DNA of 64,000 bases from an uncultured Gammaproteobacteria bacterium (GCA_964355175.1 CAYHBZ010000001.1:174335-238334); one strand, 5' to 3'. Counted from the first letter of the stretch, positions 1,648 to 19,035 are shown. Notes: generated by a model from the sequence alone, not told the origin. Program-made: numbers and translations.

Positions 1648-3822
1648 CTATTCGTCAATTTTATCCACTTGTCCGGATTTAAGTATTTTTGGCTTATGTT
1701 CGGGTGCTGGTTTTGGTTCAGAAGAATTAATTTCCGGCATTGCATATACTCGTACCGGCTTTTCTACTACCTGAGACGCGGGAGGGGTATATGATTTTTT
1801 ATCTTCATCTAGTGATAGGGGTGGTGGTGGACTGACAGGGGCTTTTGGAACTACAGGTTGTGTTGGATTCACCGGCGGTTGTGTCTGGTGGCGAGGCTCT
1901 ATGGTCGATGACTTAGATTGTTGAGGTGATTGTAAGGCGCTCAGAGATATTCCTTTTTGTTGTGTATCCACTATCGCCACTGGTGCGCTTTGATTGGGGT
2001 TGCCAAAATTTTGTCCCCCTTTATTTCTTTTTCTCTTTCTTTTACCACTACCAGACTGACCTGATTGGCCTGGCTGACCGGCGGGACGCTGCTGCATCTG
2101 ACTACCAGATGATGGCTGATTATTTGCTACCGGACGCACTACAGCGGAAGTGTGATGCGTGGTGGGCACTACTCTTGGTGCTGGATTGGACGGAGCGGGC
2201 GCAGGAATTGCCGGAAGTACATTGATATTATTTTCAATCACCACAATATTTTGCATCGGTTCGGCTACTGGAGCAGGAGCGACCGAAGCTGGGGCGGGAG
2301 CTGACTGTGGTGTTGGTTTAGGCTCTGCTGGTTTTGGAGCAGGCGGTGGAGTGCTAGGCGGTGGTGTAGGTTTGGTAGCAGCTGGCGGCGGAGTTTTGGC
2401 CACTGGTTTTTCTACTGGTTTTTTATCTTTTGGAAATTCCGCAAACATTGAATCTTCATCATCTACTTCCAGCTGAGCGGCTTCATCGCCTGGAATAATC
2501 ACCATACCGCTCCAACGCGCAATTTTATCTTCGATCTTTTCTCTGTTTACAGCGTAGCGTTCACGCGACACACGCACCACTTTTTCCATACTGCCGGTGG
2601 CCTGCGCGATAGGAGCCATAGTGAGCGCGCTAAACGGACGACTGGCCACACCATCAATCATTAATTTAAGATAGATATGAAACTTTGGCAGATTGATAAG
2701 ATCTTCTTCGACAAAAGTAGGAATAAATTCTTTGGCCAAAATTTCGGCATCACTGGATCCTACACGAAAAGTTACGATAGTACCCACGTTACCAATTACA
2801 GCCGCTAATACTTCTTCTTCGAGCTGTTCCATATATTGGTGAGCCATCGTGAGGTCCAAGCGATATTTACGGGCTTCAGATAAAATATTAGCAAAAGATT
2901 CAGTCGCAAAATTTTGAAATTCATCTACATACAAAAAGAAATCTTTACGCTCAGTTTCAGGCGTATCTACGCGCTCCATGGCGGAGAGCTGAATTTTGGT
3001 GATAAGCATACCGCCAAGCAGACGCGAATTATCTTCACCAATTCTGCCTTTACTGAGGTTCATGATGAAAATCTTTTTCTCATCCATGATCTCGCGAATA
3101 TTAATACGAGATTTTACCTGCGCTACGATATTACGAATCACCGAAGCTGATAAAAATTGACCAATTTTATTTTGGATAGGAGCTACGGCTTCTTGTTTAT
3201 ATTTATCATTGTACGAAGCAAACTCTGTCTGCCAAAAAGCTTTTATTACCGGATCCTGAGTATTATTCACTACGCGGCGGCGATATTCTTCGTCGGCGAG
3301 CAATCTATTAATACCCAAAAGAGTGGTGCCGGGAAAATCCAAAAGCGCCAAAATAGTATTATTTAAAATGTATTCCATTCTTGAGCTCCAAACATCCGGC
3401 CAAATTTTCTTGAACACACCCATCAAACCAGAAGCTACTAAATGTTTTTGATCCGGACGAATGGTTTCCAAAATATTAAAGCCGATTGGATAATCCAAAT
3501 CGGACGGATTGAAATATACCACATCATTGATGCGGTTGGCTGGAATATAATTGAGAATTTTTTCAGCGGTGTCACCATGTGGATCTACATAGCCCAAGCC
3601 ATGGCCGGCATAGATATCGTTGAGCACCATGTTTTCCAGCAAAGTAGTTTTGCCCATACCGGTTTTACCCACTACATACATATGGCGACGGCGATCGTCG
3701 AGCTTGATACCAAATTTGCGATTTTGATTGCGATAGTTGGCCAAACCAAAAAAATTAACATCGGGATTACCCAGTGGATTATTGGCAGGATCTGTACTTG
3801 GATCTAAAATTAAATCGCTCAT
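1648..3822 (-). CDS. VirD4/TraD/TraG-family P-loop ATPase (type IV coupling-protein-like) with a long Pro/Ala/Ser/Gln-rich C-terminal tail
   Basis: Walker A YVVGKTGMGKTT and Walker B LYVDEFQNF, with overall TraD/VirD4-like layout. No N-terminal TM helices. The last ~300 aa are a low-complexity PAPAP/TPPP tract containing GKRKRKRNKG. The DNA at 1800-2500 is correspondingly GC-rich and repetitive. Confidence 0.6.
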   Translation of the reverse strand: MSDLILDPSTDPANNPLGNPDVNFFGLANYRNQNRKFGIKLDDRRRHMYVVGKTGMGKTTLLENMVLNDIYAGHGLGYVDPHGDTAEKILNYIPANRINDVVYFNPSDLDYPIGFNILETIRPDQKHLVASGLMGVFKKIWPDVWSSRMEYILNNTILALLDFPGTTLLGINRLLADEEYRRRVVNNTQDPVIKAFWQTEFASYNDKYKQEAVAPIQNKIGQFLSASVIRNIVAQVKSRINIREIMDEKKIFIMNLSKGRIGEDNSRLLGGMLITKIQLSAMERVDTPETERKDFFLYVDEFQNFATESFANILSEARKYRLDLTMAHQYMEQLEEEVLAAVIGNVGTIVTFRVGSSDAEILAKEFIPTFVEEDLINLPKFHIYLKLMIDGVASRPFSALTMAPIAQATGSMEKVVRVSRERYAVNREKIEDKIARWSGMVIIPGDEAAQLEVDDEDSMFAEFPKDKKPVEKPVAKTPPPAATKPTPPPSTPPPAPKPAEPKPTPQSAPAPASVAPAPVAEPMQNIVVIENNINVLPAIPAPAPSNPAPRVVPTTHHTSAVVRPVANNQPSSGSQMQQRPAGQPGQSGQSGSGKRKRKRNKGGQNFGNPNQSAPVAIVDTQQKGISLSALQSPQQSKSSTIEPRHQTQPPVNPTQPVVPKAPVSPPPPLSLDEDKKSYTPPASQVVEKPVRVYAMPEINSSEPKPAPEHKPKILKSGQVDKIDE

Positions 3823-4816: not shown

Positions 4817-6943
4817 TTAAAAATTAAATACTTTAATATTTCCAAACTTGGCCAATGGCGTGTTTAGATTATAATCCCCTACTAAATAACAACTATCTGA
4901 CCCTACCCACCCGCGGGCTTCCTTGGTGGCGCGTTCGGGATTGGCAGAGGACAGCGCGAGTAATTGCATTCTCTCAGGCTGACCAAAACTAGAGTCAATC
5001 GGAAAACCGCCGCCCACTACTCTGCGGCCGGAAATCTGTTCCAGCGCCAACAGCGGATAGGTATCGGCCAACACACAAATTTTCTGTCTGCCCTCTTCCC
5101 TATTCCAAACATATTGCATAGCCTCATACTCATTTTTGGAAACCACGCGCGTATCCGGACCAAGCGTATATGAAGCCGCGATAGCGAAAGAGAAAATAAA
5201 AACTGTTAAAAAGATTATTATTTTATTTTTCAAAAAATTATATCCAAAATAAACTGCCGGTAAAATAATTAAAATAGCCAAAGTAGCATCCAACCGACGA
5301 GTGAGTATATTGTCCCCGCTCAAAAAATAGCGCGATATAATATAACCACCAAATACACTGGACGAAAAAATTATCCAAAAATTATTTATTCGACTGTGGA
5401 TCTGCAGCATTTTTTTCAGGCCCAAAATCCAAATGAGCCAAAATGCCAACATGACCAAAACCATCCAGCCGCGCCAGGCGATAAATCCATTGGTAGTAAG
5501 AGCGCTAAGCGGCGGCTGATTGAAAAAAATATTTCCAGTACTGATATCACTAGCACGCAAACCAAACCCTGCGTACCAGCCGCTTAAATTTCCAACCACC
5601 GCTTTGATCTGCGCCCACCAATTTAATTGGTCCTTGAAGGTGGAAAAACCAGATATTAATTCAATAGCCGGTATTGAAAGCATTGTAAAAATACCAACCA
5701 CGAACAAATGATTTTTTGAAAATTTTAATCTTAACAAATTTATTAAAACAAAAGCCAGCCAAAATAAAACAAAAAATACCGTATGAGTAAAGATGGACAA
5801 GACACCGAGGATAATTAAAAATACCGCACCCCCATCCGTGGGTTTCTGACTATTTTTAATAATTAACCACAAACTAAACAACCAAAATAATATTCCCAAA
5901 TTCGCCGGCAAACTAAAACTTCCGCTCACTTGCAGAGCAAACGGCCAAGCCGCTAGCCATACCAAAAATAGAGCGGCTCTTTTTTCTAAATTATAGGCCC
6001 TGGCAATCTCAAATAAAATTATCGGCAAAATTAGTGACCAGATTATCGGCAAAAAATATTTTATAAAAACAATCGGATCCACTTGGCATAATTTCTGAAA
6101 TAGCAAAGACAGCGAATTAAACTGCGCGTAGGCCAGAGAACCAAAATCAAGTTTCTGCCAAAAACCAAGCGGCGCGGAGCTTAAAGATGGAGACACAATC
6201 GCGCCGGACTGCCACCAGCTACTTTCTGTGGCCAGATGACGCCAGCCATCGGCGCCATAAAATAATTCATGACTCAAGGGTAAATAGGCGTGCAATAAAA
6301 ACGCGTGAATAATTAACAAAAATAAAATCGTGCCGGCTTTTAAACGAGAAAAGATCAATAGTCCCAAAATTAAAGTCGCGGCAAAAAATGCCAAAATAAA
6401 TTCTGGCGATATTGTCTGCCACGGCGTCATTAAAACAGCGCTACTTTTACTTTTATACAATAAATAAAAAGCAACCGCCACAATTGCCAAATACAATATT
6501 ACTCCCGCTTTGCTGGTTGGCAATTCTTCTATCACTTCTTTGTTTTGATCTTCAATCTCGGCCGCTTCTTCCACCCTATGACTATATTGTTTTAAATATC
6601 CAAAAAATAATCCTGTGATAAAAGTGCCGATAGCCAAAGCAAATCCAGACATTGTGTAAATTAAAGCGACCGCTCCGACCACGCTTCCCCAGACACACAA
6701 TACCAAAAAAATAGCGACTACTCGAATTCGGAAACTTGCCGACACACCAAAATATTGTCGCAAAAATTTATGGGCAGACGAAGCAAAATATAGACAAAAG
6801 CTCACCAAAACAAGCCAGCCGACAGTGGCGCTGTGCCAAAAAAGTATATTTATTAGAGTAAAAAATGACCAAGTCAGGGCAAGCGTAGCCTCCTTAAATA
6901 AAGACAGTTTGTTCATATGGTCTCTATTATAACAAAATACCAA
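4817..6943 (-). CDS. Large polytopic membrane protein (>12 predicted TM helices), possibly GT-C-fold glycosyltransferase-like
   Basis: Long hydrophobic segments run throughout the ORF, with a ~120-aa soluble C-terminus. No definitive catalytic motif recognised (WWQSG only loosely resembles the oligosaccharyltransferase WWDYG motif). Start may be at the internal MNKLS (6916). Confidence 0.5.
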   Translation of the reverse strand: MVFCYNRDHMNKLSLFKEATLALTWSFFTLINILFWHSATVGWLVLVSFCLYFASSAHKFLRQYFGVSASFRIRVVAIFLVLCVWGSVVGAVALIYTMSGFALAIGTFITGLFFGYLKQYSHRVEEAAEIEDQNKEVIEELPTSKAGVILYLAIVAVAFYLLYKSKSSAVLMTPWQTISPEFILAFFAATLILGLLIFSRLKAGTILFLLIIHAFLLHAYLPLSHELFYGADGWRHLATESSWWQSGAIVSPSLSSAPLGFWQKLDFGSLAYAQFNSLSLLFQKLCQVDPIVFIKYFLPIIWSLILPIILFEIARAYNLEKRAALFLVWLAAWPFALQVSGSFSLPANLGILFWLFSLWLIIKNSQKPTDGGAVFLIILGVLSIFTHTVFFVLFWLAFVLINLLRLKFSKNHLFVVGIFTMLSIPAIELISGFSTFKDQLNWWAQIKAVVGNLSGWYAGFGLRASDISTGNIFFNQPPLSALTTNGFIAWRGWMVLVMLAFWLIWILGLKKMLQIHSRINNFWIIFSSSVFGGYIISRYFLSGDNILTRRLDATLAILIILPAVYFGYNFLKNKIIIFLTVFIFSFAIAASYTLGPDTRVVSKNEYEAMQYVWNREEGRQKICVLADTYPLLALEQISGRRVVGGGFPIDSSFGQPERMQLLALSSANPERATKEARGWVGSDSCYLVGDYNLNTPLAKFGNIKVFNF

Positions 6944-10157: not shown

Positions 10158-10267
10158 AATTTTAAATTATTGGCCCATTTTTTAAAGTTCAGCGAAGATG
10201 AACTGCGGGCTTCTTCTTATATAAACAGGGTTAATTATAGCAAATACAAGCTGAAATGTCAATACTA

Positions 10268-10720
10268 GGCTGTTTAGATTGACAAAAAGCTAATTTCTAT
10301 ATACTATGAGTGCGCAACGCAGCCAAACTGCGCAGGAAAAAAACGATGTTTCTGACCTGTGATGAAACCAATCACTCCCTGGAAGAAACCTGGCCGCTCT
10401 GGGCCGGAACACGGTCGGATGTCCCTACCCATTCCGCTTTGAGCCACAATGTGATCCAGAAGATCCCTGAGGACCAGAGGCGTTCGACTCCTTGTCAGCC
10501 TAGCGTCGGCGATGATGGTGTAGACATCCACGAAGCGGAGAGTACGACCCATCGTGGTTTCTACCACATGACCGGGTTTAAGCTCGGACGCTTCGCGTTT
10601 TCCATTTCTGGCGAGACGGCCCGCAAGTACCTGCCTCGCCACTACAGCCGTTACCCGGCAGTTGCAAACTGACAGGAGGAATATTGGAGGGGTGTGCCGG
10701 CGGACCACACTAAACGTCCG
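10268..10720. ncRNA. GC-rich structured-RNA candidate (unassigned; tmRNA-like features at 10268-10501)
   Basis: A ~450-nt island of much higher GC than its surroundings. Overlapping ORFs on both strands (10304..10723 and 10310..10672) are typical GC-island artefacts. Many hairpins. 5' GGCUG-uuua-GAUUGAC (10268-10284) resembles the tmRNA 5' end. GGACCAGAGGCGUUCGACUCCUUGUCAGCC (10471-10500) resembles a tmRNA T-arm plus acceptor 3' strand. UAGGCUG at 10266 pairs perfectly with CAGCCUA at 10496. A possible tag frame (gct aat ttc tat ata cta tga) is followed by a stable hairpin. However, the tag is atypical and 10502-10720 is unexplained, so family and strand are uncertain. Confidence 0.35.
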
Positions 10721-10728
10721 CACATCTC

Positions 10729-10766
10729 AAAAACCACTTTCTTCCGAAAGTGGTTTTTGTTTTTTA
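10729..10766. terminator. Bidirectional rho-independent terminator (AAAACCACTTT-cttccg-AAAGTGGTTTTT)
   Basis: 11-bp stem flanked by an A-run and a T-run. It lies between the GC-rich RNA island and the stop of the minus-strand DUF192 gene. Confidence 0.7.
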
Positions 10767-11234
10767 TTATTTTATCACCTCCACTTTATCCCCTATTTTT
10801 AAATGTAAACTATTGGCCATACCAGCTTTAAGCTCCAACACCTTATCCGAAATATCGCGCGCGGCGTATGGGATAAGATCACTCTCGGTTGTGGCCGGAT
10901 CTATAGGCACACCAGGAGCATAGTCCACCACCATACCGTTTTTTATCCAAATAATATCTATTGGAAACTGCATATCGCGCATTACAAACACATGTTGTTC
11001 GGTAATAGGAAACAAAAATAACATACCGTCATATTCTCCCAAATTTTTACGACCACCTAGTCCTTTGGTCCAATGTTTAATGTTATCAGCCACCAAAACA
11101 TTTAGTGTTTGATTATTTATACGCACCTGCGCGTTGGGCCAATAATAATCGTAATACATCTTTAGAGAAAAAGAGAATAAAATTATCAATCCTAAAACTA
11201 CCAACTGCCAACTACTACTTTTATTTTTTGCCAT
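10767..11234 (-). CDS. DUF192-family protein (signal-anchored)
   Basis: N-terminal TM/signal segment, then the DUF192-like core (FPIDIIWIKNGMVVDY ... pattern). Confidence 0.55.
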   Translation of the reverse strand: MAKNKSSSWQLVVLGLIILFSFSLKMYYDYYWPNAQVRINNQTLNVLVADNIKHWTKGLGGRKNLGEYDGMLFLFPITEQHVFVMRDMQFPIDIIWIKNGMVVDYAPGVPIDPATTESDLIPYAARDISDKVLELKAGMANSLHLKIGDKVEVIK

Positions 11235-12279
11235 ATAATTGCTTTTTGGAAACCACGGCTTCTAAAATCATAACAATAAATATCAGGCAAAGCAAGGTAA
11301 CTAATTTCCAGCCACTGGTCATAAATAAAGCCGACGCACCAAATAGGGCCGCGAAAAGATAAAAAATCATAACCGCTTGCCACTGCTTGAACCCACTGTC
11401 TACTAAACGAAAATGAAGATGACGGCGATCACCCTCAGATACTGACTGGTGATTTTTTAGACGACCAATAATAACATAAACCAAATCTATGATTGGCACC
11501 GCCATCACCAAAAGCGCAGTCGCGATTTTACTGCCGGCAATGATAGCAATGGTGCCAAGCATCAGACCTAAAAATTGTCCGCCGCCCTCACCCAGAAATA
11601 TTTTTGCGGGGCTGAAATTTAAAAATAAAAAACCCAGACAACTGCCGGCTAAAGTAAAAGCGACCAAGGCCACATCCGGCTGAAAAAATTTGGTAGTGCC
11701 GCCAGCCAGTGCCGCTACCGACAGTGCGCCAATCATCACTACCCCGGTCGCCAATCCATCTAAACCATCTAAAATTTTCACAGTGTAAATCATACCCATC
11801 AGCCATAAAAAGGCCAGGATTTCTACACCAATCAAAATCGTACCAAAAGCTTGGGTCTGAATTTTCCAAAAATCCAATCCAATCGTACCGCCAAAAGGAT
11901 TGGTAATACCATCAAAATTTAATCCGCCGGCCAACACCATAAGCACAGCCACAGCGGAAAATAACAAACGATAGTGATAAGCAATTTTAAATTTATCATC
12001 AAAATACCCCACCACCATCAAAATCAACCCAGCCAAAAAAAATAAAATCAACTGACGGGCGCTGAGATTCCTAAAAATAATTCCACCATAATTATACAAA
12101 TAAAAAACTACCGCCCAAAAAGAAACAAAAATTGCCACACCACCCAAAAGCGGCACAGATTTTTTATGCTGTTTACGCGGTTCATTCGGAACATCTACAA
12201 CCTGAAATTTTTTAGCAAATTTTTTGACTGCCAATGTTAATACAAAACTCAGTCCAGCCGCTATAAGAAAATAAATCAT
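11221..12279 (-). CDS. mraY: Polyprenyl-phosphate N-acetylhexosamine/MurNAc-pentapeptide 1-phosphate transferase (GT4 MraY/WecA family); MraY favoured
   Basis: ~10 TM helices. DDxxK motif (GYFDDKFKI). ILDGLDGLA matches the MraY NLTDGLDGLA motif. FLGEGGGQFLG matches FMGDVGSLALG. His-rich RHLHF matches MraY HHH. Lies in a dcw neighbourhood (mraZ-rsmH-ftsL upstream). Confidence 0.6.
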   Translation of the reverse strand: MIYFLIAAGLSFVLTLAVKKFAKKFQVVDVPNEPRKQHKKSVPLLGGVAIFVSFWAVVFYLYNYGGIIFRNLSARQLILFFLAGLILMVVGYFDDKFKIAYHYRLLFSAVAVLMVLAGGLNFDGITNPFGGTIGLDFWKIQTQAFGTILIGVEILAFLWLMGMIYTVKILDGLDGLATGVVMIGALSVAALAGGTTKFFQPDVALVAFTLAGSCLGFLFLNFSPAKIFLGEGGGQFLGLMLGTIAIIAGSKIATALLVMAVPIIDLVYVIIGRLKNHQSVSEGDRRHLHFRLVDSGFKQWQAVMIFYLFAALFGASALFMTSGWKLVTLLCLIFIVMILEAVVSKKQLYGKK

Positions 12280-12327: not shown

Positions 12328-15114
12328 CTAGACGACTCGAATATCCCCACCCGCCCCGATGACAACTTTATCCCGGCGTTTAATCTTACCACCAAGCAGT
12401 AATTCCGCCAAACGATTTTCCACTTTTTCTTGCAAAGCGCGGCGCATTGGACGAGCCCCAAATTCCGGATCAAATCCGACATCCGCCAAAAATTCATAAG
12501 CGGCCGGTTCAGCTTCTAATTCGATACCTTTGACTTCGAGATCCTTGGACACGCGTTTGAACATTAATTTCGCTACCTCAATAATATCCGGTCTATCAAG
12601 CGCTTTGAACAATACGATACCATCAAAACGATTCAAAAATTCCGGACGAAAATTTTCTTTAAGTTCACCGTGTAATAGTTTCTCTTTTATCTTTTCGGAA
12701 GTTTCACCCGCACGCATCTGCTCCTGCACAAAAGAAGTGCCGGCATTGGAGGTGGCTATTAAAATAACATTAGTAAAATCTACCACATGTCCGACACTAT
12801 CGGTAAGACGGCCATCATCCATGACTTGCAAAAATAAATTTAAAATATCTTTGTCGGCTTTTTCCATTTCATCCAGCAATAGTAGAGAGAACGGATGGCG
12901 ACGAATCGCTTCGGTCAGCACACCACTTCCCTTTTCACCCGGAGCTCCAAGCAAACGATAGATGCTACTTTTATCCTGGTATTCACTCATATCCAGACGC
13001 ACCATACGATCTTCTCCACCAAAATAAACTTCCGCAATAGTTTTAGCCAGTTCAGTTTTACCCACACCGGTTGGACCCAAGAATAAAAAGTTTGCAATTG
13101 GACGCTTGGTGGAACGGATTTCTGCGCGCGCGCGACGCAAAGCATTGGCCACCAGATTTACCGCTTCACTCTGACCAACTACGCGTTTATGCATCTCATC
13201 TTCAAGATGTAATAATTTGGAAGTTTCGTCAGCGGATACAGTAGTGACCGGCACACCAGTCTTTTGCGATACCACAGTCGCCACATCTTCACCGGTCACA
13301 AATGAATTTACGCCTTTTTTATTATGAGCGAAAGCCGCGGACTCAGTCATAATTTGAATAGCACTTCCAGGCAAACAAATTTCATGCAAAAATCTAGAAG
13401 ATAATTGCACCGCTTTGGAGACAGCGTCATAAGAAAAAAATACATGTTGACGATATTCAGCATTGCCTACTTTGGATTCAAGCACTTGAATTGATTGATC
13501 TTCGCTCATTTCTTGAATTTCAACTTTTGCAAATAGTGTACCAATCGGTGAACTGACAATATGACGAGAATAATTATCCGGCTCGGTGGTAGCCAAAGTG
13601 AGAAATCGTCCACTGCCCAAATAATCATTTAGTGTTCCGGCCACATCCAAACTACCTTCCTTTTCACCAGCGGAAACACCGGTAATTTCGTGAATATTTG
13701 GAATATACAAAATAACATTACCGGCCCGACCAATATCCTGCATAATACCAATTAACCTCTCCACCGCGCCCGATGGCGTAGTACCGGCCAAAAGTTTGGG
13801 AATACTAAGACGCACCAAGCGTTTATCTTTGAGGCGAACCGGCACATCGTCTTCTACCATTTTTTGGGCCAAACCTTCGATGATACTACTTTTGCCCACA
13901 CCGGTTTCACCAACCAAAATCGCATTTTGTCCACCACCGTCAATAATACGAAAAATTTCTTCAATTTCTTTTTCGCGTGCCACACAGGTATCGAGGTGTC
14001 CAAACTGCGCCGAAATAGTAAGGTCATCACTAAAACCATTCAAGAATGGTGTCTGCACCGCAGTCATAGCTTTATCCATGCCTTTGGTAGAACGGTGCGA
14101 AGCAGAAGCGCGGAATTTCATATACTGTCTGTACAATCGCTCGCGGATTCTGGCCCATTCCACCACATTGAGCAACTTGGCTTTATCCACTGTAAGATCA
14201 AACAAAATATCCTGAATTTTTTCAGACTGTTTGATGGCGGATAATAATAATTCAGTCACGCTGACATATTCCTGATGCGCTTCATATGCTTCCTCATAAG
14301 CCAAAAATAACGCCTGCTGGAATTCACCGGAAATCAGCGGCATAGTAAGCGTATCTACTTTGGTATTTTGCAAAGGCACTGCTCCCAAAACATTTTCCAA
14401 AGTTTTTTGTAGTGATCCCGACGACATTCCCAAACGCACAAAGACATTACTAATACGATTGGATGACAAAAGCGCGTAAAAAAGATGCTCCGGAGTCACA
14501 ACACCTTTGCCACTTCTGTCGGCTACTAAATACGCTTCGCCGAGCACCGCCAAAGCCTCATCGGTAAAGGTATCGGCAATATTTAATCTTTTTTTGGATT
14601 TTATTTTTTTGGCTTGAGCCCAATCGGATACCTCTATATCTTTTTCCTGTTCACTGTCTTTCTGATTATAATGAAAATGCTCTACCTGATCTTTTTTAAT
14701 ACGCTCTACTATTACGCGATACCAGAGGTAAAGCAAAATTAAAGCGCCGATATAAATCAAGAAACCAACTATCCCTTTTAAATTAGAAAAAAATGAAATC
14801 CAAAAAGTAGGATTAAATAAATTGGCCAAAAAACTTTTGTCTCTGGCTAAAACATAGGCGGCCCAGCCCCAGGCGTTGAGCCATAAAATTAATGAAGTAA
14901 AAAATCTAACCTTATTAAAAATTCGACGTCCTTTGGCCAAGTTCAAATGATAACGCGTCAAAGGATAACTCCAAAACAGCCAATGCCCACGGGCAAAATG
15001 CCCAGACGACATTCCGTGGCATTTATTGCATTTGCTCATCCCAACATAGCCAATTGATTTACAATCATCGCAAGTGAGAATTTTAATTGGCTCTTGTTTT
15101 GGAAATAACAACAT
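12328..15114 (-). CDS. ClpC/ClpB-type double AAA+ chaperone-ATPase with N-terminal zinc-ribbon and transmembrane anchor
   Basis: Two Walker A boxes (ILVGETGVGKSS; FLFLGPTGVGKTELAKT). Clp_N repeat (DTFTDEALAVLGEAYLVADRSGKGVVTPEHLFYALLS). Sensor/arginine finger regions. The N-terminal ~190 aa hold CxxC..CxxC (CDDCKS...CNKCHG) and two hydrophobic helices (FFTSLILWLNAWGWAAYVLA, IVGFLIYIGALILLYLWY). Start taken at MLLFPKQ (15114), directly after the upstream stop; the alternative start at 15153 overlaps the upstream ORF. Confidence 0.75.
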   Translation of the reverse strand: MLLFPKQEPIKILTCDDCKSIGYVGMSKCNKCHGMSSGHFARGHWLFWSYPLTRYHLNLAKGRRIFNKVRFFTSLILWLNAWGWAAYVLARDKSFLANLFNPTFWISFFSNLKGIVGFLIYIGALILLYLWYRVIVERIKKDQVEHFHYNQKDSEQEKDIEVSDWAQAKKIKSKKRLNIADTFTDEALAVLGEAYLVADRSGKGVVTPEHLFYALLSSNRISNVFVRLGMSSGSLQKTLENVLGAVPLQNTKVDTLTMPLISGEFQQALFLAYEEAYEAHQEYVSVTELLLSAIKQSEKIQDILFDLTVDKAKLLNVVEWARIRERLYRQYMKFRASASHRSTKGMDKAMTAVQTPFLNGFSDDLTISAQFGHLDTCVAREKEIEEIFRIIDGGGQNAILVGETGVGKSSIIEGLAQKMVEDDVPVRLKDKRLVRLSIPKLLAGTTPSGAVERLIGIMQDIGRAGNVILYIPNIHEITGVSAGEKEGSLDVAGTLNDYLGSGRFLTLATTEPDNYSRHIVSSPIGTLFAKVEIQEMSEDQSIQVLESKVGNAEYRQHVFFSYDAVSKAVQLSSRFLHEICLPGSAIQIMTESAAFAHNKKGVNSFVTGEDVATVVSQKTGVPVTTVSADETSKLLHLEDEMHKRVVGQSEAVNLVANALRRARAEIRSTKRPIANFLFLGPTGVGKTELAKTIAEVYFGGEDRMVRLDMSEYQDKSSIYRLLGAPGEKGSGVLTEAIRRHPFSLLLLDEMEKADKDILNLFLQVMDDGRLTDSVGHVVDFTNVILIATSNAGTSFVQEQMRAGETSEKIKEKLLHGELKENFRPEFLNRFDGIVLFKALDRPDIIEVAKLMFKRVSKDLEVKGIELEAEPAAYEFLADVGFDPEFGARPMRRALQEKVENRLAELLLGGKIKRRDKVVIGAGGDIRVV

Positions 15115-15115
15115 A

Positions 15116-15472
15116 TTATCTCGTAAAAGACATAAATAATCCGCCAAAAACAATTATCGGCAAAATCAGCCAGACACAAAACAAAGCCAGACAAACCACA
15201 AACCAAATCAACAGCGCCAAACTGCGGAAGAAAAACTGCGCCAAACGCATGAAGAAGCTAATTATCCTCCCCTGCCAATCATACTGACCAAACATCGGCA
15301 CAAATAAATTTTGTATCCACAAAACCGGCGCCAACGTCTTGTTGCCTTCCATAAAAAATTGGCCACACCATTTGGCTGAATGCACTACTCCACCGGTATA
15401 CCACCAGAGCGGAAAATAAAAAAGATCCAGCAGAGCATCAAAAAAAATACGTTGAAATACTAATAGCCACAT
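15116..15472 (-). CDS. Hypothetical small membrane protein (3-4 TM)
   Basis: 118-aa hydrophobic ORF whose stop abuts the ATG of the ClpC-like gene (TAA-T-ATG). No family recognised. Confidence 0.4.
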   Translation of the reverse strand: MWLLVFQRIFFDALLDLFYFPLWWYTGGVVHSAKWCGQFFMEGNKTLAPVLWIQNLFVPMFGQYDWQGRIISFFMRLAQFFFRSLALLIWFVVCLALFCVWLILPIIVFGGLFMSFTR

Positions 15473-15555
15473 AAAAATTGTTTGGATTTATTATAGCATA
15501 AAAACCTTGAAACAAAAAATCCTCGACTAGATCGAAGATTTAAAATTAACAAGTA

Positions 15556-15915
15556 TTATCGTGCCATGGCCACCGCTGGAGAGGTATTGAGACGCTGCAC
15601 CTTGGCCACAGCCACCAAATTCAATTCCGGCAAACGCTTTTCAATATTGTTCATGGAGCCAGCATCAGCAATTTTGATTTGTAGATTCTGGACTTGATTA
15701 TCCATTTCACTCACTTGCTTTTCCAGGTTATGAATTTCATATCCAGTAGCCGAAACGGCGTTTATGCGCACCATATAAGCGGCCGATAAAAACATTACGC
15801 TAATCAAAAGGGTGGAACGCATCCCGCGACCAGTGAGCCACTCTGGCATAGCCATAGTACCTACGGCTTCTATAAAATTATGATAGTGAGCTTGAAGTTG
15901 GCGTTTATAAGACAT
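15556..15915 (-). CDS. ftsL: Cell-division protein FtsL-like (single TM plus coiled coil)
   Basis: Lies immediately downstream of rsmH as in dcw clusters. TM segment LLISVMFLSAAYMV followed by a heptad-rich periplasmic region. Confidence 0.5.
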   Translation of the reverse strand: MSYKRQLQAHYHNFIEAVGTMAMPEWLTGRGMRSTLLISVMFLSAAYMVRINAVSATGYEIHNLEKQVSEMDNQVQNLQIKIADAGSMNNIEKRLPELNLVAVAKVQRLNTSPAVAMAR

Positions 15916-15918
15916 ATT

Positions 15919-16821
15919 TTAAATTTTTTCTACTATTCTTAATTTGGCACTGCGACTACTTGGATTATTTTTTAATTCTTCGTCGGTCGCGACCAAAGGT
16001 TTTTTAGTTATTATTTTTAAAATTCTATTATTATTTTTGACAAAGTATTGTTTCACGATTCGGTCTTCCAAGGAATGAAAAGTGATGACTGCCAATCGCC
16101 CGCCCGGTTTCAACACACTGAGGGCTTGAGGCAATGCTTGTCGTACTACCTCAAGCTCTTTATTTACCGCGATACGCAAAGCTTGAAATATCTGCGTAGC
16201 CGGATGGGCACCACCTACCCAAGGAACTTCTTTGTCAGTTTTTAATTTTTTTCTATAAACTTGTAAAATTATTTCGGTCAGTTGTTTACTGGTCACCAAA
16301 GGTTTTTTACCGCGTTCATCCACAATGCTTTTGGCAATCTCGGCGCTCAATTTTTCTTCACCGTAAAACTTGAAAATATTTATCAGCTCGGCCAGGGTGT
16401 ATTGATTCAGAATATCAGCGGCGGTTTCTCCCATATCAGTGCTGTAGCGCATATCCAGCGGCTCGTCGCCATCGAAGCTAAATCCGCGATTGCGTTCTTT
16501 GAATTGCGGCGTGGACCAGCCTAGATCCATGAGGATCGCATCTATTGGACCAAAATCATTGTCAGAGATAATTTTTTCTAAGTTGGAAAAATTGTCTCTA
16601 ACAAAAATTATTTGCTTTTCAAATTTGTACAGATTATTTTTGGCGCGCAATAGTGATTCGGGATCAGCATCAATGCCAAGCAATTTTCCTTTTGGACCAA
16701 TCTTGGCCAAGATCGCTTCACTATGACCAGCATCACCCAAAGTACAATCAATTACTAAACTATTATTTTTAAGGTTCAGGCCTTCTACTACTTCATTTAG
16801 CAATACAGGAATGTGTCTCAT
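15919..16821 (-). CDS. rsmH: 16S rRNA (cytosine1402-N4)-methyltransferase RsmH
   Basis: MRHIPVLLNEVVEGL..., DCTLGDAGHS, and the LKPGGRLAVITFHSLEDRIVK signature of RsmH/MraW. Confidence 0.9.
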   Translation of the reverse strand: MRHIPVLLNEVVEGLNLKNNSLVIDCTLGDAGHSEAILAKIGPKGKLLGIDADPESLLRAKNNLYKFEKQIIFVRDNFSNLEKIISDNDFGPIDAILMDLGWSTPQFKERNRGFSFDGDEPLDMRYSTDMGETAADILNQYTLAELINIFKFYGEEKLSAEIAKSIVDERGKKPLVTSKQLTEIILQVYRKKLKTDKEVPWVGGAHPATQIFQALRIAVNKELEVVRQALPQALSVLKPGGRLAVITFHSLEDRIVKQYFVKNNNRILKIITKKPLVATDEELKNNPSSRSAKLRIVEKI

Positions 16822-16823
16822 AT

Positions 16824-17255
16824 TTATACTCCTAATTCAGCCATCTTTTCGGCAATGTCATTGCTGTTGGATTCGGTTTGGGTTTTGTATGTCTTCCATT
16901 TCTCTTCATCCCAAATTTCCGCGCGACTATACAAACCGGCCAACACCACATTCTTTTTTAAACCGGCAAACTCGCGTAAATATTCCGGCAAAACTACACG
17001 GCCTTGTTTGTCGATTTCTACTTCCATCGCTCCGGCCAACATGAGACGCGCAAAGGCACGACTGTTGGATTGAGAAAATGGCAGAGCGGCTAATTTTTCA
17101 GCTAGCTTGGCCCATTCGGTTTTGGTGTAGAGAAATAAACAATTGTCCAAACCACGAGTGACTACGGCACCCTTATTTAAGGCAGCACGAAATTTGACCG
17201 GTATGGCCAACCGTCCTTTTTCATCCAAATTGTGACCGTACTCGCCAATGAACAT
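16824..17255 (-). CDS. mraZ: Transcriptional regulator MraZ
   Basis: MFIGEYGHNLDEKGRLAIPVKFR and a second SpoVT/AbrB-like repeat (DKQGRVVLPEYLR). Start chosen at MFIGEY; the ORF is open to 17312. Confidence 0.85.
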   Translation of the reverse strand: MFIGEYGHNLDEKGRLAIPVKFRAALNKGAVVTRGLDNCLFLYTKTEWAKLAEKLAALPFSQSNSRAFARLMLAGAMEVEIDKQGRVVLPEYLREFAGLKKNVVLAGLYSRAEIWDEEKWKTYKTQTESNSNDIAEKMAELGV

Positions 17256-17357
17256 AAATTTTAAATCACCATTTCTCTCCACTACTATCCATTTTACACC
17301 ACTTTGAAACATTGGTCAACACTTTTTACCAAAATAATCATGCCATTTTTTAGCTAA

Positions 17358-17418: not shown

Positions 17419-19035
17419 TTATTTTTCTATAGGCCTACTTATTTGTATTATTGCTTCTTTTCCTAATTTTTTAGTTCCAACTCTTATAAAATTACCTGCG
17501 TCTCCCATTTGCACCCAGGCTATATGTTCAACCGGATCTTTCCATCCTAAAAATAGAGCCGAATGTGTTCCTGGACAATATGAGTTCCAATTAACAATCA
17601 TATAATAATCTCCTGGCTGTAATTCATTTATCCAATTTGGATCCCATTTGCCTGTATCCTTTAATATACTAACTAATTTTTCTGTAGCTAAGTCAGGATT
17701 TATAAAACATGCTTCTGGCCATATTTTTTTTGTGCATTTTGCATCGCAAGACATCCCTCTTGTAAGTTGCGTTACAGCCAACCCTCCTCCGTAATTTGTT
17801 TTGAGGTTAGTTACATCATGCAATATTTTCTTTGGAGCATATTTTGTGTTGTTTCCGACCGAATTGCACGCTATGCTAGTTTTAGTATTTTTAGCATGTT
17901 GTAGACATTTAGCACTATCTCCATAAGAACCGCCGGTTGCGGAGACTAAAGCATATACGTTCGTTGTACCGACTCCGCAGTTTTCGTATTGAATTTGACA
18001 TTGGGCAGCGGCTTCAGATGCCATAGCCACTCTCTGACTCACCGAACCTTTTAAAATTTGTTGAGTTACCATTTTTTCATGAAATTCCAATCTTCTCGGA
18101 ATGTTTTTTGAGATTTGGTTAACTCTTGGCTTTTTTTTCAAATCAGGTATCAAACTAATCGTATCATCTGCAAAATTAATAGGTTGAGTAAGATCGACCG
18201 GACATTTAGTAAAATACTTAAATTGGCCAGGGGAACCTTCCCCAGCGGCAGCGTCTGCTAAATCGCTAGCAGTCAGACTCTCTGTTTGGGGAATTTCTTC
18301 AAAATATTCTACTTTCAGCGCTTGAAAATTTACCAAAGTAGGATTCACAATACTAAGTATGGTGAAAGACCCCCAACCTATAAAAAGACCAACAACAATC
18401 TGACCTATACGTTTAAAACCTTCTGCTTTTGCTTCACCACCACCAACTATAATCTTGACACCTGTGGTAATAATCATGACAACCGCAATAATACTAATCA
18501 CAACTAAACCAACTTTATAAGCGGCCGCAATATATTCACCAATATAGGGAATATTAAGATAAGTTTTACCATTTTCCTGGGTAACCGTACTGCTCGAAAG
18601 TTTGCTAAAATTTAAACCAGGAATATTGATCATCAACTTCGGCTCTTTTATACGCAAATCTATTTTTATATCCGTAAAACCAACCGTACCACCCTTATCA
18701 AAATTTTCTTTACCTACCGCATCAAGATAACAACGGTTGTTCAAACAAGCCTGACCACCTTCTTGGGTACTATATCCGGTACAATCTTCGGCCACATTGC
18801 ATTTTTTATCTACAAAGACACAATCATCACCGTTTTCACATTCTGTAGAAAGACAATAATAACTACCATCTGAGTCTTTGACACCTCCACCCTGAAAAGC
18901 ACTGCAAGCGTCCAATCCAAGACAGCCGAGCTTGGAACAGCCACTTACTTTTTCAGAATCAATAATCGCGTTAGCCTGTTTTGGGAGAATAAAAAAACTT
19001 AATAATAAAATAATAAAAATTTTTCTCCAAAACAT
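17419..19035 (-). CDS. Secreted/membrane-anchored Cys-rich protein with a possible C-terminal cysteine-peptidase-like (NlpC/P60 or CHAP-like) domain
   Basis: Signal peptide (IFIILLLSFFILPKQANA). Cys-rich N-terminal module (CSKLGCLGLDAC...CLSTECENGDDC). Internal TM (LVVISIIAVVMIITTGV). C-terminal PGDYYMIV...THSALFLGW loosely resembles the His-containing half of papain-like amidases. Function not established. Confidence 0.45.
   Translation of the reverse strand: MFWRKIFIILLLSFFILPKQANAIIDSEKVSGCSKLGCLGLDACSAFQGGGVKDSDGSYYCLSTECENGDDCVFVDKKCNVAEDCTGYSTQEGGQACLNNRCYLDAVGKENFDKGGTVGFTDIKIDLRIKEPKLMINIPGLNFSKLSSSTVTQENGKTYLNIPYIGEYIAAAYKVGLVVISIIAVVMIITTGVKIIVGGGEAKAEGFKRIGQIVVGLFIGWGSFTILSIVNPTLVNFQALKVEYFEEIPQTESLTASDLADAAAGEGSPGQFKYFTKCPVDLTQPINFADDTISLIPDLKKKPRVNQISKNIPRRLEFHEKMVTQQILKGSVSQRVAMASEAAAQCQIQYENCGVGTTNVYALVSATGGSYGDSAKCLQHAKNTKTSIACNSVGNNTKYAPKKILHDVTNLKTNYGGGLAVTQLTRGMSCDAKCTKKIWPEACFINPDLATEKLVSILKDTGKWDPNWINELQPGDYYMIVNWNSYCPGTHSALFLGWKDPVEHIAWVQMGDAGNFIRVGTKKLGKEAIIQISRPIEK

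What the first reader, a model, noticed from the sequence alone, without database searches (positions are those of the whole stretch)
12328..15472. Membrane-anchored ClpC-type double-AAA+ unfoldase inside the dcw cluster at the position normally held by ftsI
The gene order on the minus strand is mraZ, rsmH, ftsL-like, small membrane ORF, ClpC-like, MraY-like. In canonical dcw clusters ftsI (PBP3) and the Mur ligases follow ftsL. Here a 928-aa Clp ATPase sits there instead, with an N-terminal CxxC-CxxC zinc ribbon and two TM helices fused to Clp_N repeats and two AAA+ modules. Clp unfoldases are normally soluble. A membrane-tethered ClpC co-transcribed with divisome genes suggests division-site-localised protein remodelling. 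No IGF/LGF ClpP-docking loop is evident, so it may act as a ClpP-independent disaggregase or extractase.
Basis: partly seen in the sequence, partly recalled or inferred. Interest (0 to 1): 0.65.

Follow-up and report, generated by a model that had tools for sequence, protein, structure and literature searches.

The report
Membrane-anchored, pore-loop-less Clp ATPase relative
A real, strongly conserved gene of tiny "candidate phyla radiation" bacteria encodes a membrane-anchored relative of the Clp/Hsp100 protein-unfolding motors that has lost the parts such motors use to grip proteins and to dock a protease. It always travels with a small membrane protein, and usually with a cell-envelope sugar-transferase gene, so it more likely acts as an ATP-driven switch or scaffold for envelope synthesis than as an unfoldase.

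Summary
A 928-aa Clp/Hsp100 homologue (12328-15114, minus strand) carries an N-terminal CxxC..CxxC zinc ribbon and a two-helix membrane hairpin. It follows mraZ, rsmH, an FtsL-like gene and a 118-aa membrane ORF, and precedes a GT4 transferase. But there is also no M-domain. D1 is catalytically dead: Walker B DE is PN/HN, the arginine fingers are gone and the pore loop has no tyrosine. The intact D2 ATPase has lost its GYVG pore loop. These losses hold in 120 close and 34 distant relatives. Some lineages keep forms with a dead D2 or no D2 at all. The GT4 is WecA-like, not MraY. Across divergent lineages the constant neighbours are the small ORF and this GT4. The mraZ-rsmH-ftsL link is lineage-specific, and here a hairpin plus an extended -10 box separates the two gene groups. 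Purifying selection is strong (dN/dS 0.03-0.05). My best reading is a Torsin-like, non-threading AAA+ switch or scaffold for envelope-precursor machinery in Patescibacteria. The family is uncharacterised and is labelled "Clp protease ATP-binding subunit" in public databases.

The parts
15116..15472 (-). 118-aa conserved small membrane protein; its stop codon lies 1 nt before the Clp ATG (translational coupling likely)
   Evidence: The ORF is seen. It has 336 homologues, all about 118 aa and without a Pfam family. Conserved motifs are YFPlWWY..G, GN..laPglW and FVPMfGQyDwqGRiiSFfMR. It sits directly upstream of the Clp gene in every locus with upstream sequence. A homologue is also present in distant loci L045, L046, L048 and L049, with hmmsearch E-values of 1e-21 to 1e-36. 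dN/dS is 0.10.
12328..15114 (-). 928-aa membrane-anchored Clp/Hsp100-like double-AAA+ protein (stop codon included)
   Evidence: Pfam and NCBIfam hits are; the protein is below the cut-offs of ClpA, ClpB, ClpG, ClpK and ClpV. The residue-level alignment to B. subtilis ClpC is. More than 120 full-length homologues have 57-96% identity. The AlphaFold2 model has pLDDT 81. Foldseek best matches are ClpC and ClpB. dN/dS is 0.03.
14971..15078 (-). N-terminal zinc ribbon (residues 13-48; C15, C18, C29, C32), DnaJ-like CxxCxGxG type, followed by the conserved PLTRY motif (residues 51-55)
   Evidence: The four Cys are invariant. There is a weak Pfam DnaJ_CXXCXGXG hit at E 0.04. AlphaFold2 predicts beta strands at 13-48.
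14842..14904 (-). TM helix 1 (about residues 71-91), the end of a long helix 54-91 whose first part is a basic juxtamembrane segment
   Evidence: Hydropathy and charge analysis and the AlphaFold2 models.
14704..14781 (-). TM helix 2 (about residues 112-137), followed by the conserved VE..Y segment
   Evidence: Hydropathy analysis, AlphaFold2 models and the list of invariant residues.
14197..14571 (-). Clp N-domain (residues 182-306, two helical repeats)
   Evidence: Pfam Clp_N matches residues 197-244. The alignment to the ClpC N-domain starts at residue 182. Motifs HLFYALLS.NRISNIFIRLG and AYEEAY.AHQEYVSVTELL are highly conserved.
14047..14184 (-). Family-specific linker: a long helix (311-339), then an invariant but low-confidence segment S-K-x-GMDKAMTA (340-356) just before D1
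   Evidence: Invariant residues are G345, D347, A349, T351 and A352. pLDDT is below 50 at residues 344-352. The segment has no counterpart in ClpC.
13315..14046 (-). D1 AAA+ module (residues 357-600), catalytically degenerate
   Evidence: Walker A is GETGVGKS. Walker B is ILYIPN rather than hhhhDE. The pore loop is TTPSGAVE rather than KYRGEFE. The arginine fingers read TLF rather than RRF. In the family, 0 of 120 have DE and 0 of 120 have an aromatic pore-loop residue; most have GK[RK] in Walker A. There is no M-domain after D1.
12331..13227 (-). D2 AAA+ module plus D2-small domain (residues 630-928): an intact ATPase site, no aromatic pore loop, no ClpP loop
   Evidence: GPTGVGKTE, LLLLDE, TSN, the NRFD arginine finger and GARPMRR are all conserved in 120 of 120 sequences. 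The pore loop is GAPGEKGSG rather than GSPPGYVGYDEGG, and ClpC KYVGF has no counterpart.
11221..12279 (-). WecA-like polyprenyl-phosphate HexNAc-1-phosphate transferase (GT4/PNPT family), 48 nt downstream of the Clp gene
   Evidence: Pfam Glycos_transf_4. NCBIfam scores are WecA 109 bits against MraY 72 bits, both below cut-off. The MraY HHH motif is not kept. Orthologues next to the Clp-like gene in distant lineages share G..DD, YT.K.LDGLDGL, IFLGE.GS and HLH[FH]RL. JGI names a cluster member 'UDP-GlcNAc:undecaprenyl-phosphate GlcNAc-1-phosphate transferase'.
10767..11234 (-). DUF192 (UPF0127) protein with an N-terminal membrane anchor; overlaps the GT4 stop by 14 nt
   Evidence: Pfam DUF192 and a TM segment at residues 6-30. 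It is downstream of the GT4 in most related loci.
15473..15555 (-). 83-nt spacer between the FtsL-like gene and the small ORF. It holds a terminator-like hairpin (15541-15517, followed by a T-run) and an extended -10 box TGCTATAAT (15498-15490), 17 nt before the ATG.
   Evidence: The hairpin comes from the terminator scan; the number of such sites in the region is not above chance. The -10 box was read directly from the sequence. This is a consensus match only, with no transcript data.
15556..17312 (-). Context: mraZ (16824-17312), rsmH (15919-16821) and an FtsL-like gene (15556-15915)
   Evidence: Pfam MraZ and Methyltransf_5. NCBIfam FtsL_Actino scores 26 bits, below its cut-off of 55. The FtsL-like protein has a TM segment at residues 34-56.

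Best explanation
This is a membrane-embedded derivative of the class-I Clp/Hsp100 ATPases found in Patescibacteria (CPR). It probably no longer threads proteins.

Shown:
- A zinc ribbon and a two-helix hairpin hold the N-domain/D1 face of the presumed hexamer against the cytoplasmic side of the membrane.
- D1 is a hydrolysis-dead ring.
- D2 is the only competent ATPase.
- Neither ring has the aromatic pore loop that grips polypeptides.
- There is no M-domain for Hsp70 coupling and no ClpP-docking loop.

Inferred:
- D1 may serve mainly as an assembly ring.
- The protein forms a membrane complex with the co-translated 118-aa membrane protein.
- It acts as an ATP-dependent conformational switch or scaffold, following Torsin-like logic, for envelope-precursor machinery.
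- The first target is the adjacent WecA-like transferase, which starts a lipid-linked glycan. The effect could be on its assembly, activity or stability, and it may be coordinated with division and cell-wall genes in some lineages.
For: 1. Motif states come from the residue-level alignment to ClpC and family counts. D1 Walker B is DE in 0 of 120 close and 0 of 35 distant sequences. The D1 pore loop is aromatic in 0 of 120. D1 arginine fingers are lost. D2 Walker A/B, sensor 1, arginine finger and sensor 2 are kept in 120 of 120. The D2 pore loop is aromatic in 0 of 120 and varies between 6 and 12 residues in the wide set. No ClpP loop occurs.
2. The ATPase is dispensable in some lineages. P0340 and P0354 have a dead D2. 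A class of about 600 aa has no D2 at all, yet it sits next to the same GT4 in two of the three loci examined.
3. Neighbourhood: the small ORF is always directly upstream of two-ring forms, including distant loci L045, L046, L048 and L049. An orthologous WecA-like GT4 lies downstream in most Magasanikbacteria loci and in 6 of 7 distant loci, while the outer neighbours change.
4. Where the GT4 is missing, a SEDS (FtsW/RodA) gene and GT2 genes follow. Other neighbours are YceG, DUF218 and DUF192. The context is therefore envelope biogenesis throughout.
5. Strong purifying selection covers the membrane module too.
6. Many family-specific invariant residues cluster in the juxtamembrane region and the N-domain-D1 linker. 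This fits a partner-binding surface.
7. There is a precedent. Torsins are Clp/Hsp100-related and membrane-associated, lack aromatic pore loops and work with membrane cofactors (PMC5425593).
Against: - No physical interaction was tested. Gene adjacency inside a slowly rearranging CPR block (GT4-L21-recR-ybaB-dnaB) may partly reflect inherited gene order.
- One Magasanikbacteria clade lacks the GT4 next to the gene (L009, L011, L013, L014, L027, L032).
- The D2 catalytic site and the N-domain are conserved as tightly as in working unfoldases. Non-aromatic pore loops do not strictly exclude pulling on a substrate.
- Hexamer formation is assumed from homology.
- I could not check whether the same genomes also encode canonical ClpB, ClpC, ClpX, ClpP and MraY.
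Confidence: 0.45

Rival explanations
1. It is still a protein remodeller or extractase. A membrane-tethered Hsp100 pulls on the cytoplasmic tails of membrane proteins, possibly the GT4 or division proteins. It would use its N-domain and non-canonical pore loops, and then release them or hand them to FtsH or Lon. It would not need ClpP or DnaK.
For: The overall Clp fold and the intact D2 motor are present. The N-domain is conserved. The anchor places the ring entrance at the membrane, as in FtsH or Msp1. The Magasanikbacteria D2 loop GEKG[ST]G is itself conserved.
Against: Both pore-1 loops lack an aromatic residue in all 120 close members. The D2 loop is variable in length and sequence across the wider family, which is unlike a substrate-gripping element. 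D1 is dead. Forms that are D2-less or D2-dead keep the same genomic partner.
Confidence: 0.25
2. One reading: a divisome-specific ClpC occupies the ftsI slot of the dcw operon and remodels proteins at the division site.
For: The order mraZ-rsmH-ftsL-small ORF-Clp recurs in most Magasanikbacteria loci and in the more distant L045. In one clade a SEDS FtsW/RodA gene follows.
Against: The link is interrupted in L002 by a 6-kb gene and in L003 by three opposite-strand genes. It is absent within 8 kb in L018, L031 and L043. In distant lineages the upstream genes are ATP synthase, DUF218 or signal peptidase. A terminator-like hairpin and a -10 box separate the two gene groups here. The defining ClpC features are missing. 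No localisation data exist.
Confidence: 0.1
3. It is an ordinary housekeeping chaperone of these reduced genomes that happens to carry a membrane anchor. The neighbourhood would be inherited gene order without functional meaning.
For: The whole block from the beta-CASP gene to dnaB is collinear across Magasanikbacteria. Public annotations call the protein a Clp ATP-binding subunit or chaperone ATPase.
Against: Every feature that general Hsp100 function needs has been lost: M-domain, ClpP loop, pore-loop tyrosines and D1 hydrolysis. The small ORF-Clp-GT4 core survives when the flanks change completely. The start and stop codons are tightly coupled.
Confidence: 0.1

Closest known systems
ClpC (B. 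subtilis / S. aureus / M. tuberculosis ClpC1), class-I Clp/Hsp100
   Same: It is the best sequence and fold match in the PDB (451 bits; Foldseek E 1e-57). Both have an N-domain of two Clp_N repeats, D1, D2 and a D2-small domain. The D2 catalytic motifs are identical.
   Different: The query has an N-terminal zinc ribbon and TM hairpin and no M-domain. Its D1 Walker B, arginine fingers and pore loop are degenerate. It has no GYVG in D2 and no VGF ClpP loop. No NCBIfam Clp model reaches its cut-off.
ClpA / ClpB
   Same: Like ClpA, it has no M-domain: a single continuous match to TIGR02639. Like ClpB, it has no ClpP loop.
   Different: ClpA has the IGL loop and tyrosine pore loops. ClpB has the long M-domain for DnaK coupling and two active rings. 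Both are soluble.
Torsin ATPases (eukaryotic ER and nuclear envelope)
   Same: Torsins are Clp/Hsp100-related and membrane-associated, lack aromatic pore loops and work with membrane-protein cofactors. They are thought to act as switches rather than threading motors (PMC5425593).
   Different: Torsins have a single AAA+ module, lack their own arginine finger and are luminal. Here there are two rings, the D2 arginine finger is present and the protein is cytoplasmic. This is an analogy, not shown homology beyond the shared Clp clade.
ClpX / ClpE N-terminal zinc-binding domains
   Same: These are also Clp ATPases with an N-terminal C4 zinc module (own knowledge).
   Different: They are soluble, have aromatic pore loops and dock ClpP. 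The zinc ribbon here has DnaJ-like CxxCxGxG spacing and is followed by a TM hairpin.
FtsH, Msp1/ATAD1, archaeal LonB (membrane-anchored AAA+ machines)
   Same: The AAA+ ring is tethered to the membrane by N-terminal or internal TM helices.
   Different: They belong to other AAA+ clades, have aromatic pore loops, and carry a protease domain (FtsH, LonB) or have proven extractase activity (Msp1; PMC7018516 was listed but not read).

Membership tests
ClpC | N-domain with two Clp_N repeats | tested here: met
   Pfam Clp_N matches residues 197-244. The alignment to the ClpC N-domain covers residues 182 to about 300. AlphaFold2 predicts eight helices in residues 185-339.
ClpC | Catalytically active D1 (Walker B hhhhDE, arginine fingers, KYR pore loop) | tested here: not met
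   The query has ILYIPN, TLF and TTPSGAVE. None of 120 family members has DE or an aromatic pore-loop residue.
ClpC | Short coiled-coil M-domain (docking site for MecA/McsB) | tested here: not met
   ClpC residues about 408-464 have no counterpart: the two aligned segments meet at query residues 600-605. The match to the ClpA model is a single continuous stretch.
ClpC | ClpP-docking loop ([IVL]-G-[FL]) in D2 | tested here: not met
   ClpC KYVGFNVQDETQ aligns to RAG-----ETS. The loop is absent from all 35 distant members, and 2 of 120 close members have what look like chance matches.
ClpC | GYVG aromatic pore loop in D2 | tested here: not met
   GSPPGYVGYDEGG aligns to GAP-GEKG---SG. None of 120 close members has an aromatic residue there.
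ClpC | Active D2 ATPase site | tested here: met
   GPTGVGKTE, LLLLDE, TSN, NRFD and GARPMRR are kept in 120 of 120 sequences.
ClpB | Long M-domain and a score above the TIGR03346 cut-off | tested here: not met
   The score is 570 bits against a cut-off of 1232. The match falls in two stretches that skip the profile's M-domain region.
ClpA | IGL ClpP loop, tyrosine pore loops, and a score above the TIGR02639 cut-off | tested here: not met
   The score is 508 bits against a cut-off of 993. The loop and tyrosines are absent.
Torsin-like non-threading AAA+ | No aromatic pore loop; membrane association | tested here: met
   The literature basis is PMC5425593.
Torsin-like non-threading AAA+ | Single AAA+ module that lacks its own arginine finger, which a cofactor supplies | tested here: not met
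   There are two modules, and the D2 arginine finger R829 is present in 120 of 120 sequences.
MraY (for the downstream GT4) | TIGR00445 score above cut-off; HHH motif; FMGD catalytic Asp | tested here: not met
   The score is 72 bits against a cut-off of 192. HHH is replaced by HFR and MGD by LGE.
WecA/TagO-type PNPT (for the downstream GT4) | GT4 fold, DDxxK, DGxDGL, an HIHH-like motif, and a TIGR02380 score above cut-off | tested here: inconclusive
   WecA is the best-scoring model, but at 109 bits against a cut-off of 326. G..DD, LDGLDGL and HLH[FH]RL are present. The comparison with the WecA HIHH motif rests on my own recollection. Substrate specificity cannot be tested with these tools.
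dcw operon member | Conserved co-location and co-transcription with mraZ-rsmH-ftsL | tested here: inconclusive
   Co-location is conserved in most Magasanikbacteria loci and in L045. It is lost in L018, L031, L043, L046, L048 and L051. A hairpin and a -10 box lie in the spacer. There are no transcript data.

The most novel reading that the evidence does not exclude
A bacterial counterpart of the Torsin principle. An Hsp100 descendant has given up polypeptide threading and become a membrane-embedded, ATP-gated regulator or assembly platform. Together with a dedicated 118-aa membrane subunit, it would control the first, lipid-carrier-consuming step of an envelope glycopolymer pathway (the WecA-like PNPT) in CPR bacteria. 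That would link cellular energy state or the division cycle to the use of scarce polyprenyl-phosphate.
Probability: 0.3. Interest if true: 0.8.

Novelty: new variant of a known kind. Interest (0 to 1): 0.6.

Why it matters
Clp/Hsp100 proteins are textbook soluble threading motors. This family is conserved and under strong selection, yet it is membrane-anchored and has a dead D1. It has no pore-loop tyrosines, no M-domain and no ClpP loop. Some relatives even lack or inactivate D2. That shows the scaffold can be put to a use other than unfolding, which so far is discussed mainly for eukaryotic Torsins.

Its fixed pairing with an uncharacterised small membrane protein, and its frequent pairing with a distinct WecA-like transferase (Glu in place of the catalytic-motif Asp), point to an unknown control layer of envelope synthesis in Patescibacteria. 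These organisms cannot make their own lipids, and their cell-surface biology underlies their life attached to host cells.

The finding also flags a systematic mis-annotation ("ATP-dependent Clp protease ATP-binding subunit") in hundreds of metagenome-derived genomes.

Tried and rejected
- **N-terminal word search.** Searching the first 188 aa alone with the word-indexed search found only 2 fragments. The full-length search and the profile search were needed.
- **Pfam at E up to 10.** The N-terminus gave only a weak DnaJ_CXXCXGXG hit, and the small ORF gave nothing credible.
- **ftsI, mur and mraY elsewhere in the window.** None were found. The window holds MurJ, one SEDS gene and a 35-kb glycan-synthesis island.
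- **Recent insertion.** Rejected: base composition is unremarkable and gene order is conserved.
- **Decaying pseudogene.** Rejected: dN/dS is 0.03-0.05.
- **True start downstream of the TM region.** Rejected: the N-terminus is conserved, and the identical 928-aa sequence is called independently in other assemblies.
- **Literature.** Six full-text searches found no description of this family. The library covers open-access papers only.
- **Candidate ncRNA at 10.3-10.7 kb.** No Rfam match, and the folding z-score is -1.4.
- **Not possible with these tools.** I could not check whether the same genomes also encode canonical ClpB, ClpC, ClpX, ClpP or MraY.


Full report
**What is there.** The minus strand between 10.7 and 17.3 kb carries seven genes in this order:
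- mraZ (16824-17312)
- rsmH (15919-16821)
- a 119-aa FtsL-like protein with one TM helix and a coiled coil (15556-15915; NCBIfam FtsL 26 bits, below cut-off)
- a 118-aa hydrophobic ORF (15116-15472)
- a 928-aa Clp/Hsp100 homologue (12328-15114)
- a GT4 polyprenyl-phosphate sugar-phosphate transferase (11221-12279)
- a membrane-anchored DUF192 protein (10767-11234)

The Clp ATG lies one base after the stop of the small ORF. The organism is a Patescibacteria (CPR) bacterium of the Magasanikbacteria group. The rest of the window holds MurJ, one SEDS gene and a large surface-glycan island. It holds no ftsI, mur ligase or mraY gene.

Pfam finds Clp_N, a first AAA module, AAA_lid_9, AAA_2 and ClpB_D2-small. 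More than 120 public proteins of 915-935 aa align over 100% of the length at 57-96% identity. The exact 928-aa sequence is an independently called protein.

The N-terminal 180 residues are conserved. The four Cys of CxxC..CxxC are invariant, with DnaJ-like CxxCxGxG spacing and a weak Pfam hit. They are followed by a PLTRY motif, a basic stretch and two hydrophobic helices.

Family-averaged hydropathy shows two peaks, near residues 80 and 122. Mean K+R counts are 4.5, 1.2 and 4.2 before, between and after the helices. This fits a hairpin with both the zinc ribbon and the ATPase in the cytoplasm. AlphaFold2 models the region with pLDDT about 85-95: strands 13-48, helices 54-91 and 115-139. dN/dS against close relatives is 0.05 for the N-terminal 383 codons and 0.03 for the rest. 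The membrane module is therefore translated and under selection, and the start is not downstream of it.

**What kind of Clp protein it is.** The residue-level alignment to B. subtilis ClpC and the family statistics show six departures from every characterised class-I Clp ATPase:
1. D1 keeps a P-loop, but Walker B hhhhDE is ILYIPN. In the family it is HN, NN, QN or PN and never DE, in 0 of 120 close and 0 of 35 distant sequences. In most members the Ser/Thr after the P-loop Lys is Arg or Lys.
2. The D1 arginine fingers (RRF) read TLF.
3. The D1 pore loop KYRGEFE reads TTPSGAVE, with no aromatic residue in 120 of 120.
4. There is no M-domain. ClpC residues about 408-464 have no counterpart, and the ClpA model matches in one continuous piece.
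5. D2 has canonical Walker A and B, sensor 1, arginine finger and sensor 2 in 120 of 120. Its pore loop GSPPGYVGYDEGG is shortened to GAPGEKGSG, with no aromatic residue in 120 of 120.
6. The ClpP-docking loop (KYVGF in ClpC) is absent.

No NCBIfam Clp model (ClpA, ClpB, ClpG, ClpK, ClpV) reaches its cut-off. The overall fold is still that of ClpC or ClpB.

**How wide the family is.** I searched a profile of the N-terminal module against 1.84 billion cluster representatives. It found only 153 proteins. Thirty-four are full-length two-ring proteins of 888-963 aa. They have the same invariant zinc ribbon, a dead D1, no ClpP loop, and a D2 pore loop that varies between 6 and 12 residues. Only P0342 (PPGF) clearly keeps an aromatic residue at the GYVG position.

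Two of the 34 (P0340, P0354) have also lost the D2 catalytic motifs. A second class of about 583-631 aa ends exactly at the D1/D2 junction and has no D2 at all. The ATPase motor is therefore not required for whatever the conserved N-terminal two-thirds does in those lineages.

**Genomic partners.** In 41 species-level genomes, nearly all labelled Magasanikbacteria or Patescibacteria, the order is beta-CASP ... mraZ-rsmH-ftsL-small ORF-Clp-GT4-DUF192-rplU-recR-dnaB. A few MAG titles read 'Gammaproteobacteria' or 'Udaeobacter' but carry the same CPR gene order.

The small ORF is directly upstream of the Clp gene in every locus with upstream sequence. The mraZ-rsmH-ftsL group is less constant:
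- It is separated by a 6-kb gene in L002.
- It is separated by three opposite-strand genes in L003.
- It is not found within 8 kb in L018, L031 and L043.

Six loci of one clade lack the GT4. In the one examined (L011), a 117-aa ORF, a SEDS FtsW/RodA gene and GT2 genes follow instead.

In more distant family members the flanks change completely, but the core persists:
- L045: mraZ-rsmH-ftsL-small-Clp-GT4-DUF192
- L046: DUF218-small-Clp-GT4-YceG-ribosomal genes
- L048: ATP synthase-small-Clp-(274 aa)-GT4-DUF192
- L049: small-Clp (dead D2)-GT4
- L047 and L051: the 600-aa form directly followed by the GT4

The small ORFs are homologous, with E-values of 1e-21 to 1e-36. The GT4s are orthologous, with the signature G..DD, YT.K.LDGLDGL, IFLGE.GS and HLH[FH]RL. 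They score higher to WecA than to MraY in every case.

The conserved module is therefore small membrane protein + Clp-like protein + WecA-like transferase, in an envelope-biogenesis setting. The dcw association is real but lineage-limited. In this window the 83-nt spacer after the FtsL-like gene contains an 11-bp hairpin followed by a T-run, and then TGCTATAAT 17 nt before the small ORF's ATG. This suggests, but does not prove, a separate transcription unit.

**How it most likely works.** The following are shown: the membrane hairpin, an intact D2 site, the loss of D1 catalysis, the loss of both aromatic pore loops, the absence of an M-domain and a ClpP loop, the constant partners, and purifying selection.

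The rest is inferred. The protein probably forms a ring under the membrane, with its N-domain/D1 face towards the bilayer. D1 would serve mainly for assembly and D2 as a nucleotide-dependent switch. The ring would bind the small membrane protein and the WecA-like enzyme through the invariant juxtamembrane surface, the N-domain and the invariant GMDKAMTA linker. It would control their assembly, activity or stability, rather than thread polypeptides.

Torsins offer a precedent: Clp-related, membrane-associated ATPases without aromatic pore loops that act with membrane cofactors (PMC5425593). I give this reading about 0.45. The rivals are:
- a non-canonical extractase: 0.25
- a division-site remodeller, as first proposed: 0.1
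- a generic anchored chaperone with meaningless gene order: 0.1

**Comparison with known families, and novelty.** The protein belongs to the Clp/Hsp100 superfamily and is closest to ClpC. It fails five of the seven ClpC features tested (active D1, M-domain, ClpP loop and D2 GYVG pore loop among them), as well as the curated NCBIfam score thresholds for ClpA and ClpB. It should not be filed as ClpC, ClpA or ClpB. It resembles Torsin in logic but not in architecture.

Six full-text searches found no description of the family. Public records call it 'ATP-dependent Clp protease ATP-binding subunit' or 'chaperone ATPase'. They call the small ORF 'hypothetical'.

I rate it a new variant of a known kind, with interest 0.6. 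It would surprise AAA+ specialists and is directly testable, but the functional model rests on sequence and gene context only.

**Limits.**
- Hexamer formation, zinc binding, topology and all interactions are inferred.
- dS is near saturation (about 1.1), so the dN/dS values are approximate.
- Terminator-like sites in the region are not more frequent than chance.
- The genome-collection scan was pattern-limited and under-samples divergent members.
- I could not verify canonical Clp or MraY genes elsewhere in these genomes.

Noticed in passing
window 10160-10766: A gap of about 600 nt lies between rplU and the DUF192 gene, with overlapping ORFs on both strands that look non-coding. On the + strand there is a promoter-like TTGACA-17-TACTAT (10279-10307) and a strong bidirectional terminator hairpin (10728-10759). 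A perfect TTGACA-17(TG)-TATAAT at 10262-10234 (-) precedes rplU. There is no Rfam match, and the folding z-score is only -1.4. The content of the gap is unexplained.
   Followed up: partly
P0279, P0285, P0337 etc.; loci L047, L050, L051: A sister class of about 583-631 aa has the same zinc ribbon, TM hairpin, Clp_N and degenerate D1 but no D2 module. It lies next to the same WecA-like GT4 in L047 and L051, and after a signal peptidase S26 gene in L050 and L051. No small-ORF homologue was found in the available flanks.
   Followed up: partly
P0340 (L049) and P0354: These are two-ring family members in which D2 is also inactivated. Walker A reads GHQGSGKTE. Walker B reads FDNFEN in one and LLNEFE in the other. 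Sensor 2 is lost. L049 still has the order small ORF-Clp-like-GT4.
   Followed up: partly
window 11221-12279 and orthologues in L001-L051: The WecA-like GT4 subfamily linked to this Clp-like gene has a conserved Glu (IFLGE.GS) where MraY and WecA have the catalytic-motif Asp (FMGD). It also lacks the two Asn of NxxNxxDGxDGL (YT.K.LDGLDGL). This suggests altered chemistry or specificity.
   Followed up: partly
window 28000-64000: A cell-surface glycan biosynthesis island of about 35 kb. It holds a WbaP-like Bac_transf (35567-36919), many GT2 and GT1 genes, RmlD- and RmlB-like enzymes, FdtA, two UDP-sugar dehydrogenases, a Wzx-like flippase (58893-60179), an asparagine-synthase-like amidotransferase and a cytidylyltransferase. 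A lone SEDS FtsW/RodA gene (45945-47045) sits inside it. In a sister clade (L011) this SEDS+GT2 block lies directly after the Clp-like gene.
   Followed up: partly
window 16824-17312: The listed mraZ ORF starts 19 codons before the conserved MraZ N-terminus (MFIGEY...). A promoter-like TTGACC-17-TAAAAT at 17319-17291 (-) overlaps that extension. The true start is therefore probably the internal Met near 17255.
   Followed up: no
window 17419-19035: A 538-aa Cys-rich protein with a signal or anchor sequence and two or three TM segments has no Pfam family. It lies between the beta-CASP ribonuclease gene and mraZ. It was detected only in the closest relative (L004), so it is a variable insert at this position.
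   Followed up: no
window 1648-3822 and 4817-6943: A 724-aa protein resembles a type IV secretion coupling protein (TrwB/TraG). A 708-aa protein without any Pfam family lies next to dnaB. An ORF of about 700 aa without Pfam hits occupies the same position beside dnaB in L001, L002 and L003.
   Followed up: no
loci L006, L008, L014-L017, L020, L022-L026, L029, L039, L040, L043: Many public MAG records titled 'uncultured Gammaproteobacteria bacterium', and one titled 'Candidatus Udaeobacter sp.', carry this CPR-specific gene and the Magasanikbacteria gene order. Their taxonomic labels are probably wrong.
   Followed up: no
L002 (P0112, 889 aa): One otherwise typical family member lacks the zinc ribbon: its N-terminus reads MDFQKSPPLNILTNNKRAETRMGVYLR with no Cys. 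It keeps the PLTRY motif and the TM hairpin. The zinc module is therefore dispensable in at least one lineage.
   Followed up: no
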